64,000 nucleotides of DNA from positions 1 through 64,000 of IMG/VR virus record IMGVR_UViG_3300035698_007208, one strand, 5' to 3'. The DNA is from a virus. Below, piece after piece: positions 10,250 through 10,928 of the stretch; positions within the stretch are counted from its first letter, which is position 1; every line of letters begins with the position of its first letter. Below the pieces are notes generated by a model. The model ran no database searches. It was given only the letters and a program-made list of their open reading frames with translations, and had not been told where the DNA came from. Position numbers and translations under genes: made by a program.

Positions 10250-10454
10250 AAGAACTATCTATTTATTATAGTAATAGATGCTACGCATCTTTATAAACTG
10301 CATTACATTCACTCCGTAAACTACGTTCATTCATTTGTTTATAATAGTTTAGAGTTAAAACACTTAATTAATAATGTTATGTTTAATAATCGGGTTATAA
10401 TACTTCACGAAACTAGAACCATAATACACCTGTAAAGGTGATATAAAAAAACAG

Positions 10455-10790
10455 AGTTTGTAATTAGAAGGGAAAAACTTCTTCCCTCCCGCTTTCGCTC
10501 ATCACGAGGACTGTCCCCATCTTGGGCGCGGCTGCTTGTTTAGGAAGCGGTGAGCCTTATCTCCCTACAGTACCGTCACGAATCTCACGGAAGTCTACAT
10601 AACCTTGCCAAGTTTAGTTATATAGACGCACTAGTTGCTTTTTCTCAGAGCTAGTATCTTATAATGCCATTACGTTGATTGCATCTTGCCGACTACATCT
10701 CCAGAATCTGATGACAGAGTATGTCATCTCAAGGAGCCCTTAACGGGTTATGGTGTAGTTCCTATGTGTTGCCTTATTGAGTTGATTTAA
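10455..10790. ncRNA. Candidate structured non-coding RNA (or origin element), family and strand unresolved
   Basis: No ORF >=60 aa in 10250-10928; visibly more GC-rich than the flanks; multiple stems. Confidence 0.45.
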
Positions 10791-10915
10791 ATGTGAGGGG
10801 AGACTATTGCTCTAAAGTATGCCATGTGTGTTAGTGTGTAGTAGTAGTTATGCCTGAGTGTTATGTGGGTGCCATATTTCTGGAAAGTTATTCTTTACTT
10901 CTGAACAACTTAGGA

Positions 10916-10923
10916 TATAAATA
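10916..10923 (+). promoter_or_regulatory. Late promoter TATAAATA, 5 nt before ATG
   Basis: Exact T4 late consensus. Confidence 0.7.
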
Positions 10924-10928
10924 TTAAC

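What the first reader, a model, noticed from the sequence alone, without database searches (positions are those of the whole stretch)
10250..10928. ~680-bp ORF-free island with dense hairpins: candidate novel large ncRNA or replication origin
Seen: this is the only long non-coding gap in a tightly packed window, and its core (about 10460-10780) is visibly more GC-rich. Stems include AGGGAA/TTCCCT (10469-10487); GC-GAAA-GC, a GNRA loop on the minus strand (10491-10498); CCGT/ACGG (10573-10590); 11-bp GTCTACATAAC/GTTATATAGAC (10593-10627, G-U on the minus strand); ACTAG/CTAGT (10630-10655); and perfect GATGACA/TGTCATC (10710-10728). GACTACATC/GGTGTAGTT (10691/10752) encloses two hairpins like a multi-way junction. 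I recognised no tRNA, tmRNA, RNase P or group I core. Strand evidence is mixed but leans minus. Inference: an unassigned structured RNA, or a structured origin/packaging site.
Basis: partly seen in the sequence, partly recalled or inferred. Interest (0 to 1): 0.8.

Follow-up and report, generated by a model that had tools for sequence, protein, structure and literature searches.

The report
Large knotted twin-box phage RNA
The longest gene-free gap of this uncultured giant T4-like phage is a gene for a large, doubly knotted non-coding RNA read from the minus strand; over a hundred related phages keep it, no RNA catalogue matched it, and its job is unknown.

Summary
The gap (10250-10928) and its GC-rich core are real. 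Two lie in a window-only insert. One (CCGT/ACGG) gives way to long-range pairs.

The window sequence alone folds no better than shuffles. Comparison is decisive: the core recurs in at least 120 IMG/VR contigs. On 46 close relatives 97% of cells pair (84% shuffled), with 39 of 52 pairs changed on both sides. On 86 broader members 93% pair (67% shuffled). Two pseudoknots covary. G.U outnumbers A.C 260 to 11, so the folded strand is the minus strand.

Two direct repeats ('twin boxes') around a hairpin change in step between phages. No complementary partner lies nearby.

No Rfam family matched the window at E<=10. This includes group I introns, Methylobacterium-1 and Polynucleobacter-1.

This scan has met the same family many times in other genomes, always behind a small GIY-YIG nuclease gene. 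Here that gene is missing from the neighbourhood, yet the RNA is intact and has its own promoter-like site. The RNA therefore does not need the nuclease gene in cis.

Function is unknown. My best guess is a trans-acting structured RNA or RNP whose boxes are read by one sequence-matched partner.

The parts
10921..10949 (-). sigma-70-like promoter candidate for the RNA (-35 at 10949-10944, 17-nt spacer with TG, -10 at 10926-10921)
   Evidence: 10 of 12 matches. The number of such sites in the region is not above shuffles, so this is a candidate only. The -35 lies inside the start of the opposite-strand endonuclease VII gene.
10761..10914 (-). CA-rich single-stranded leader with four RGGCA words (10875-70, 10856-51, 10825-20, 10775-70)
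   Evidence: Relatives have 2-4 tandem copies of the same word just upstream of the first helix. The same AUGGC word opens both boxes. Function not tested.
10692..10760 (-). 5' domain: helix H10 (10752-60 with 10692-10702) enclosing hairpins H9 (10737-47) and H8 (10710-28)
   Evidence: H9 and H8: all 8 pairs show changes on both sides. H10: at least 7 different compensatory stem versions are visible in alignment A1, but MAFFT misaligns it, so it was not counted formally.
10663..10685 (-). hairpin H7
   Evidence: 5 pairs, 100% paired, 2 with changes on both sides.
10629..10656 (-). hairpin H6 with a 16-nt loop that is invariant across the family
   Evidence: The stem shows four pair types at two positions in 86 sequences, and the loop is invariant. 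The loop pattern found >=120 IMG/VR contigs.
10592..10628 (-). long hairpin H5 (13 bp); its loop 10608-10612 forms pseudoknot PK1
   Evidence: 12-13 of 13 pairs have changes on both sides. Many G.U pairs occur on this strand only.
10521..10525 (-). 3' strand of pseudoknot PK1 (pairs with 10608-10612)
   Evidence: 5 pairs, all with changes on both sides. The window has its own compensated version. Distant lineages have 6-7 bp versions.
10543..10588 (-). pseudoknotted core: H3 (10584-88 with 10550-54), H4 (10573-75 with 10529-31) and H2 hairpin (10543-65), whose loop holds the H3 3' strand
   Evidence: H3 was not part of the covariance model, yet it is 92.6% paired in 86 sequences, with 4 of 5 pairs changed on both sides. 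H2 has two invariant G.U pairs.
10498..10520 (-). box A (first direct repeat, DR2')
   Evidence: it changes in step with box B, including indels. Own-pair score is 8.07 against 5.18 for non-self pairs, with 0 of 2000 permutations as high.
   Evidence: absent from all 45 close relatives. flags 10490-10470 as terminator-like on the minus strand.
10427..10440 (-). hairpin T between the boxes; its 3' arm is Shine-Dalgarno-like and is followed by AUG
   Evidence: at least 6 compensated stem versions. The loop is GCAA (GNRA) on the minus strand in most relatives. The 5-6-codon ORF that follows is broken by 1-nt indels in about a quarter of relatives.
10403..10422 (-). box B (second direct repeat, DR1')
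   Evidence: as for box A. It consistently lacks one C and has A for G relative to box A. The window copy is slightly degenerate.
10277..10289 (.). hairpin ending the + strand gp51 operon; possible bidirectional terminator and outer 3' limit of the RNA
   Evidence: relatives have a hairpin with a UUCG loop at the same place. Not tested.

Best explanation
Window 10400-10800, and perhaps 10277-10914, is a gene for a large non-coding RNA read from the minus strand.

Shown:
- The RNA folds into at least eleven helices. There is a 5' three-way domain (H10/H9/H8), three hairpins (H7, H6, H5) and a compact core in which two pseudoknots tie the H5 loop and the H2 loop to distant strands.
- Its 3' tail carries two direct repeats ('twin boxes') on either side of a hairpin, and they co-evolve.
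- The family is common in uncultured aquatic T4-like phages. There it follows the gp47-gp46-small GIY-YIG nuclease genes on the same strand.
- In this phage the nuclease gene is not next to the RNA. The RNA is nevertheless intact and has compensated changes of its own.

Inferred:
- Here it is transcribed from its own sigma-70-like promoter at 10949-10921. In relatives it comes from read-through of the nuclease operon.
- It acts in trans as a stable structured RNA or RNP scaffold.
- The knotted core supplies a fixed architecture. The single-stranded leader words and the two identical boxes are read by one partner whose specificity changes from phage to phage. That partner is most simply a nucleic acid or a co-evolving protein encoded elsewhere in the genome.

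What the partner is, and what the complex does, is not known. The confidence given is for the whole statement. That this is a real minus-strand structured RNA element I hold at about 0.9. The trans-acting, one-reader part I hold at about 0.35.
For: Conservation:
- The spacer core is ~72% identical in related loci whose gp51 protein is only ~65% identical. In two loci it is inverted relative to gp51.

Structure:
- In 46 close members 97.2% of cells pair, against 84.4% in shuffles and 31-46% in slid controls. 39 of 52 pairs changed on both sides; 0 of 500 shuffles did as well.
- In 86 broad members 93.0% pair against 67.0%, and the covariation score is 0.62 against 0.20.
- Pseudoknot H3 was not in the model and still covaries.

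Strand:
- 260 G.U cells against 11 A.C cells.
- Variable hairpins have GNRA loops on the minus strand.
- The alifold energy is -43.5 on the minus strand and -29.9 on the plus strand.

Not coding: there is no consistent ORF, and indels are not multiples of three.

Boxes: identity covariation gives the top mutual-information pairs, and the permutation test gives 0 of 2000.

Independence from the nuclease gene:
- A co-oriented ~141-aa SegE-type GIY-YIG gene lies directly upstream in nearly all relatives.
- That gene is absent from the 98-kb record here.
- The window RNA still scores 134.8 bits on model R1, a figure that is partly circular because the window was among the sequences the model was built from. 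It also keeps a window-specific compensated PK1.
- The nuclease gene occurs without the RNA in phage Melnitz-3.

The record holds a single copy.
Against: - There is no transcript evidence of any kind.
- The window sequence alone folds no better than shuffles.
- The promoter match is no more than chance would give in this AT-rich region.
- The helices were chosen on the minus-strand alignment, which biases the G.U count somewhat.
- Alignment A5 was fitted to the model's nested helices.
- The trans-acting role and the 'one partner reads both boxes' idea are inference only. No complementary partner was found within -700 to +500 nt.
- In relatives the RNA starts 30-60 nt after a stop codon, which would also suit a cis-acting 3' UTR.
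Confidence: 0.55

Rival explanations
1. RNA-primed origin: the transcript enters the AT-rich stretch beyond box B and forms a persistent R-loop that primes replication or marks a start site, as at T4 oriF/oriG or ColE1 RNA II. Box A in the RNA would re-anneal to the DNA of box B.
For: - The element lies among replication and recombination genes: gp46, the gp47 position and endonuclease VII.
- The RNA 3' tail runs into DNA of 25-27% GC at 10250-10450.
- Box A is nearly identical to box B on the same strand, so it could pair with the template strand there.
Against: - Cumulative GC skew turns at 16020, where gene orientation switches, and not here.
- A primer needs no eleven-helix, doubly knotted, covarying fold.
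- The constant one-base bulge and the G/A difference between the boxes would weaken such a hybrid.
- The record holds only one copy, and only 27% of the genome is sampled.
Confidence: 0.12
2. Cis-acting 3' element of the nuclease/recombination operon. It would be a structured 3' UTR that blocks 3' exonucleases, terminates or processes the polycistronic mRNA, or tunes expression of the upstream nuclease gene.
For: - In relatives it starts 30-60 nt after the GIY-YIG stop codon, on the same strand, with no terminator in between. The pair moves as one block, which is inverted in L040/L041.
- Hairpin T is terminator-like by the simple scan.
Against: - In this window the upstream genes on that strand are gone and the neighbours are on the opposite strand, yet every core helix is kept with compensated changes.
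- Invariant loops and two pseudoknots far exceed what a stabiliser needs.
- The co-evolving boxes are unexplained by this reading.
Confidence: 0.13
3. Ribozyme: a self-processing RNA, for example a degenerate group-I-like core left beside a homing-type nuclease gene. The boxes would be its two processing or ligation sites.
For: - The architecture is complex, with pseudoknots and invariant joining regions.
- The 3' strand of H10 and the bases before it resemble the J8/7-P7 segment of the T4 td intron.
- A GIY-YIG gene precedes it in relatives, as I-TevI sits in the td intron.
Against: - Rfam Intron_gpI finds the T4 td and nrdB introns at E 9e-8 and 2e-6 in the same mode, but nothing here at E<=10.
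- There are no flanking exons. The gp46 gene is complete and abuts the nuclease gene, and the downstream context varies.
- The P7-like letters covary away in most relatives.
- No self-cleaving family matched.
Confidence: 0.07
4. Guide RNA of the small GIY-YIG nuclease. The nuclease has only a catalytic domain, and the RNA would supply targeting, with one box as guide and the other as an immune copy of the target.
For: - The nuclease is a bare ~125-aa catalytic domain without a DNA-binding part.
- Gene and RNA are adjacent in nearly all relatives.
- The boxes are identical in sequence rather than complementary, as a guide and the non-target strand would be.
Against: - Here the RNA is kept without the gene nearby, and the gene is not found in the 98 kb held.
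- The gene occurs without the RNA in Melnitz-3 and in several IMG/VR lineages.
- The nuclease is 74-100% identical across at least 574 contigs, like a core enzyme and not a selfish one.
Confidence: 0.03

Closest known systems
Methylobacterium-1 RNA motif (Rfam RF01712; Weinberg et al. 2010, PMC2864571), an orphan motif from 'Methylobacterium, marine'
   Same: The order of elements matches the middle of this RNA: a hairpin with a ~17-nt loop, an AGGA linker, a 5-bp hairpin, a long hairpin, then CCGU.

One bacterial sequence bridges the two. Alsobacter soli L251 4479-4605 scores 26.2 bits on RF01712 and 27.6 bits on my model R1. It carries the identical H6 loop and an H3/H2-type pseudoknot.
   Different: No phage member reaches RF01712, even at E<=10. 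The bridge hit is below the gathering score and is not significant genome-wide. RF01712 models 103 nt, while this RNA has at least 330 nt, with a 5' domain, two pseudoknots and the boxes.
Polynucleobacter-1 RNA motif (Rfam RF01718), named by earlier notes of this scan as the first third of the family
   Same: It is an orphan motif from aquatic samples, and is said to cover the 5' domain in other lineages. I did not verify that claim.
   Different: There was no match in the window, in its 98-kb record, in ten relatives' records or in the two bacterial genomes.
GOLLD and ROOL, large ornate RNAs of phages and prophages (Rfam RF01998, RF03087)
   Same: Both are large, intricately folded RNAs of unknown function, carried by phages and mobile elements and found by comparative genomics.
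   Different: There is no sequence or model match. This RNA is smaller. It has the twin co-evolving boxes, which to my knowledge have not been described for those RNAs.
Group I introns of T4 (td, nrdB) with intron-borne GIY-YIG/HNH genes
   Same: A nuclease gene is followed by a knotted RNA core, and there is a short resemblance to J8/7-P7.
   Different: There is no model match although the positive control worked. There are no exons, and no P3-P9 layout could be assigned.
T4 oriF/oriG transcripts and ColE1 RNA II (R-loop primers)
   Same: An RNA made next to replication genes that runs into AT-rich DNA.
   Different: To my knowledge those primers have no conserved tertiary fold. There is also no skew signal here.

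Membership tests
Rfam RF01712 Methylobacterium-1 | covariance-model score at or above the gathering score (40 bits) | tested here: not met
   No hit in the window at gathering or at E<=10. None in 9 + 13 relatives' loci.
Rfam RF01712 Methylobacterium-1 | three-hairpin layout with AGGA linker and trailing CCGU | tested here: inconclusive
   The layout agrees by inspection. The only statistical link is one bacterial bridge sequence with sub-threshold scores on both models.
Rfam RF01718 Polynucleobacter-1 | covariance-model match to the 5' domain | tested here: not met
   nothing at E<=10.
Group I intron (Rfam RF00028) | covariance-model match | tested here: not met
   No hit at E<=10. T4 td and nrdB are found at E 9e-8 and 2e-6 in the same mode.
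Group I intron (Rfam RF00028) | interrupts a gene (flanking exons) | tested here: not met
   gp46 is full length and abuts the next gene. The downstream neighbours differ between loci.
tRNA / tmRNA | tRNA-like domain found by ARAGORN | tested here: not met
   none in the 64-kb window.
'Twin-box RNA behind GIY-YIG' family of this scan (unpublished notes) | knotted core with covarying helices | tested here: met
'Twin-box RNA behind GIY-YIG' family of this scan (unpublished notes) | two short boxes that change together | tested here: met
'Twin-box RNA behind GIY-YIG' family of this scan (unpublished notes) | lies directly behind a small GIY-YIG nuclease gene | tested here: not met
   Met in relatives. 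Not met in this window: the neighbours are an endonuclease VII gene and a 294-aa gene on the other strand, and there is no homologue in the 98-kb record.
R-loop replication origin (T4 oriF/oriG type) | promoter followed by a DNA-unwinding (AT-rich) element, and a replication start | tested here: inconclusive
   There is a promoter-like site and AT-rich DNA. There is no GC-skew turning point. Initiation itself cannot be tested with these tools.

The most novel reading that the evidence does not exclude
The twin boxes are a new kind of read-out. A knotted RNA presents two identical words of 7-12 nt to one sequence-matched nucleic-acid partner that co-evolves with them. That partner could be the phage's own DNA at a start site for replication or packaging, or a second RNA. 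Alternatively, the core is a new ribozyme class that cuts or joins at both boxes.
Probability: 0.25. Interest if true: 0.9.

Novelty: new variant of a known kind. Interest (0 to 1): 0.74.

Why it matters
Large RNAs with several pseudoknots and invariant loops are rare. The known ones are mostly ribozymes, riboswitches or cores of RNPs. This one is abundant in uncultured aquatic T4-like and giant phages, matches nothing in Rfam 15 (release current to 30 Sep 2026), and my three literature searches found no description of it.

Its two boxes stay identical, rather than complementary, while they drift between phages. I know of no described RNA mechanism that explains this.

This window adds a natural experiment. 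The RNA is kept under selection without the nuclease gene that normally precedes it. That argues against a guide or cis-regulatory role tied to that gene. It directs future work towards a trans-acting function or an origin-type function.

Tried and rejected
- **Cultured phages:** blastn of the spacer and of a typical member against 50,697 cultured-phage records gave no match.
- **Public sequencing runs:** no RNA holder is listed; the holders are DNA runs from salt-lake, brine and marine samples.
- **Rfam:** nothing was found in the window in three settings.
- **RF01712 members:** none were found in 151 genomes of Alsobacter's order. A degenerate RF01712 pattern in IMG/VR gave 60 hits, and none of them looked like the motif.
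- **RF01718:** not found anywhere I looked.
- **Pairing between the two boxes:** RNAduplex gave no consistent register on either strand.
- **A cis partner complementary to the boxes:** only the partly palindromic box itself and scattered weak hits were found.
- **Mini-ORF after hairpin T:** it has a good Shine-Dalgarno-like element and an AUG, but 1-nt indels break the frame in about a quarter of relatives. I rejected it as a conserved peptide gene.
- **Other ideas:** translational bypass, tmRNA, RNase P and SRP were considered from the layout and dropped. There is no long ORF through the boxes, no tRNA-like domain and no Rfam hit.
- **MAFFT/RNAalifold on the broad set:** only H6 and H2 were recovered. 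A covariance model was needed to align H5.
- **The 294-aa neighbour:** Pfam and BLASTP do not confirm it as a GIY-YIG endonuclease.

Full report
**Setting.** The window is part of a 97.9-kb IMG/VR record that CheckV rates 27% complete. Its genes are T4-like:
- a portal gene (Pfam Portal_T4);
- a gp51-type baseplate gene at 9126-10028;
- a gp46-type SMC/AAA gene at 12347-14113 on the minus strand.

The nearest cultured portals, at about 50% identity, belong to jumbo phages such as PA5oct and Atu_ph07.

The finding lies between two groups of + strand genes. On one side are the gp51 gene and a conserved 65-aa ORF (10052-10249). On the other are an endonuclease VII gene (10929-11444; Pfam and PHROG) and a 294-aa gene.

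**The observation.**
- No ORF of 60 aa or more lies in 10250-10928.
- The core has 51-55% GC against 25-30% around it.
- ARAGORN finds nothing in the window.
- Rfam finds nothing, either at gathering thresholds or at E<=10.
- Folded alone, 10440-10800 is no more stable than dinucleotide shuffles on either strand, with z 0.0 and -0.99.

**Relatives change the picture.**
- Forty-six IMG/VR loci encode a gp51 relative. In those closest to the window the spacer core is about 72% identical, although the protein next door is only about 65% identical. In two loci the element is inverted relative to gp51.
- No ORF is shared across the homologous stretch.
- nhmmer finds the element in 129 of 166 loci held at that point.

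**Structure.** I then took the minus strand as RNA sense and named ten helices on MAFFT alignment A1.
- On A1, 97.2% of 2356 cells form standard pairs. Shuffles give 84.4% and slid controls 31-46%.
- 39 of 52 pairs show changes on both sides, and 0 of 500 shuffles reach any measure.
- A covariance model of the core (R1) aligned 86 members, including distant lineages. There 93.0% of cells pair against 67.0% shuffled, and the covariation score is 0.62 against 0.20.
- Helix H3 crosses H2 and H4, so it was not in the model. It is still 92.6% paired, with four of five pairs changed on both sides.

**Layout in window coordinates, minus strand.**
- Leader: 10761-10914.
- H10: 10752-60 with 10692-10702, enclosing H9 (10737-47) and H8 (10710-28).
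- H7: 10663-85.
- H6: 10629-56, with a 16-nt invariant loop.
- H5: 10592-10628.
- PK1: the H5 loop 10608-12 pairs with 10521-25.
- H3: 10584-88 with 10550-54. The 3' strand lies in the loop of H2.
- H2: 10543-65.
- H4: 10573-75 with 10529-31.

When the G at 10574 changes, the compensating change is at 10530.

**Strand.**
- In the ten helices there are 260 G.U cells and 11 A.C cells. The plus strand would therefore pair in only 86.6% of cells. I chose the helices on the minus-sense alignment, which favours this result. However, two G.U pairs are invariant inside helices that covary.
- The variable hairpins of relatives are capped by GCAA or GAAA on the minus strand.
- RNAalifold gives -43.5 kcal/mol for the minus strand and -29.9 for the plus strand.
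- The element is single-copy in the record.

**The twin boxes.** The two strongest mutual-information pairs in the alignment are not complementary but identical. They link 10401-10422 with 10498-10520. These are direct repeats of about 20 nt on either side of a covarying hairpin (10427-40).
- The repeats change together at several positions and even in length.
- The first copy always has one extra C, and a G where the second copy has an A.
- Each genome's own pair aligns better than non-self pairs: 8.07 against 5.18, with 0 of 2000 permutations as high.
- The same arrangement is visible in quite different lineages.
- I found no consistent pairing between the boxes. I also found no complementary partner within -700 to +500 nt.
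- Both boxes, and two to five words in the leader, begin with the same short AUGGC/RGGCA word.
- The 3' arm of the hairpin looks like a Shine-Dalgarno element followed by AUG. The tiny ORF behind it is broken by single-base indels in about a quarter of relatives.

This feature remains unexplained.

**Genomic context.** In nearly every relative the RNA is preceded on the same strand by a ~141-aa gene. The RNA starts 30-60 nt after that gene's stop codon. The gene itself follows gp46 and a ~338-aa gene at the gp47 position. Downstream neighbours vary.
- The small gene is a bare SegE-type GIY-YIG domain (PF19835, E 1e-33).
- It is 74-100% identical across at least 574 IMG/VR stretches.
- Of 80 loci fetched through that protein, about 30 carry the full RNA by nhmmer and about 13 carry a partial match. 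Many of the rest have ORF-free gaps of 290-800 nt after the gene.
- By eye, some of those gaps hold recognisably related RNAs.
- The cultured Methylophilales phage Melnitz-3 has the gene at 74.6% identity, but only a 148-nt gap follows it.

In this window the small gene is not there. Between gp46 and the RNA lie the endonuclease VII gene and the 294-aa gene, both on the opposite strand. Neither resembles the small nuclease, and the 98-kb record has no homologue.

The RNA is nevertheless intact:
- It scores 134.8 bits on R1, where close relatives score 150-178. The window and those relatives were all in the alignment R1 was built from, so only the comparison carries weight.
- All aligned core pairs but one are standard.
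- PK1 has a compensated version of its own.

A sigma-70-like site (10949-10921, 10 of 12 matches with a TG) could drive the RNA. Such sites are no more frequent here than in shuffles.

**Comparison with known families.**
- *Group I introns.* The bases before and in the 3' strand of H10 resemble J8/7-P7 of the T4 td intron. Rfam's group I model finds td and nrdB at E 9e-8 and 2e-6 in the mode that finds nothing here. There are no exons. The similar letters covary away in relatives.
- *Bacterial hits and RF01712.* An exact 20-mer of H6 occurs twice in 596 Gb of prokaryote genomes.
  - One hit is a 23-kb contig binned as a Legionellales MAG. It carries the whole RNA and is probably phage DNA.
  - The other is in Alsobacter soli, directly after a 609-aa large serine recombinase, that is, at the edge of a mobile element. 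That sequence has the same H6 loop, a long hairpin and an H3/H2-type pseudoknot.
  - The Alsobacter sequence scores 26.2 bits on Rfam RF01712 Methylobacterium-1 (gathering score 40; E 0.009 in 301 nt but above 1 genome-wide) and 27.6 bits on R1.
  - RF01712's three-hairpin layout matches H7-H6-H5 of this RNA. Weinberg et al. list it only as an RNA from 'Methylobacterium, marine' with no function.
  - No phage member reaches RF01712. I therefore treat it as the closest catalogued relative, not as the family.

**Earlier notes of this scan.** After my own analysis I looked at the scan's notes. The same family has been reported many times on other genomes as a 'twin-box RNA' behind the GIY-YIG gene. 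The function is unknown in all of those notes.
- Several notes say it always travels with the nuclease gene. This window is a counter-example.
- Several notes name Rfam RF01718 Polynucleobacter-1 as its first third. I could not reproduce that on the window, its record, ten relatives' records or the two bacterial genomes. It may hold in other lineages.

**What it most likely does.**
- *Shown:* a conserved, single-copy, multiply knotted RNA-type structure on the minus strand, kept under purifying selection with or without the neighbouring nuclease gene.
- *Inferred:* it is transcribed and acts in trans as a structured RNA or RNP. Its boxes and leader words are read by one partner whose specificity drifts with the phage lineage.
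- *Rivals:*
  - an R-loop primer or origin: there is AT-rich DNA beyond box B, but no GC-skew turning point, since the minimum is at 16020;
  - a cis-acting 3' UTR, weakened by this window;
  - a ribozyme, for which no model match exists and no test was possible;
  - a guide for the nuclease, weakened by this window and by Melnitz-3.

No public RNA run holds the sequence, so expression could not be checked.

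Noticed in passing
window 28239-44078 (+): A single ORF of 5279 aa, a quarter of the window, follows a 1392-aa ORF. I did not examine it.
   Followed up: no
window 10296-10350: A short stretch just after the terminator hairpin of the gp51/65-aa operon is conserved (74-91% over 23-82 nt). It is kept even in more distant gp51 loci where I found no twin-box RNA (L017-L036). 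It may be a separate 3' element of that operon.
   Followed up: partly
window 10916-10923 (+): A perfect T4 late-promoter word (TATAAATA) lies only 6 nt before the ATG of the endonuclease VII gene. It overlaps the -10 of the minus-strand promoter candidate.
   Followed up: no
window 10770-10875 (-): Three of the RGGCA leader words start exactly 50 nt apart (10875, 10825, 10775). In relatives the words are tandem, with a 9-10-nt period.
   Followed up: no
window 10929-12346 (+): The endonuclease VII gene and a 294-aa gene occupy the place where relatives have the small GIY-YIG gene on the other strand. The 294-aa protein has only a weak hit to a tRNA-ligase phosphodiesterase domain (E 0.005). 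Pfam and BLASTP against I-TevI do not confirm it as a GIY-YIG endonuclease.
   Followed up: partly
L251 (Alsobacter soli NZ_PVZS01000036) 2561-4760: A bacterial relative of the RNA core lies directly after a large serine recombinase gene, so the family also occurs at the edge of a bacterial mobile element.
   Followed up: partly
L250 (PBLX01000043.1, 'Legionellales MAG') 7273-7635: This 23-kb contig binned as a bacterial MAG carries a full copy of the phage RNA. It is probably phage DNA in the bin.
   Followed up: partly
L249 (Methylophilales phage Melnitz-3 MZ577098) 3998-4586: This cultured phage has the small GIY-YIG gene at 74.6% identity, annotated as hypothetical. Only a 148-nt gap follows it, and nhmmer matched only the end of the nuclease gene in the 8.4-kb stretch fetched, not the RNA.
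   Followed up: partly
L204 4399-4471: A tRNA gene (Rfam, 58.6 bits) lies 1.5 kb downstream of the GIY-YIG gene in a lineage that appears to lack the RNA.
   Followed up: no
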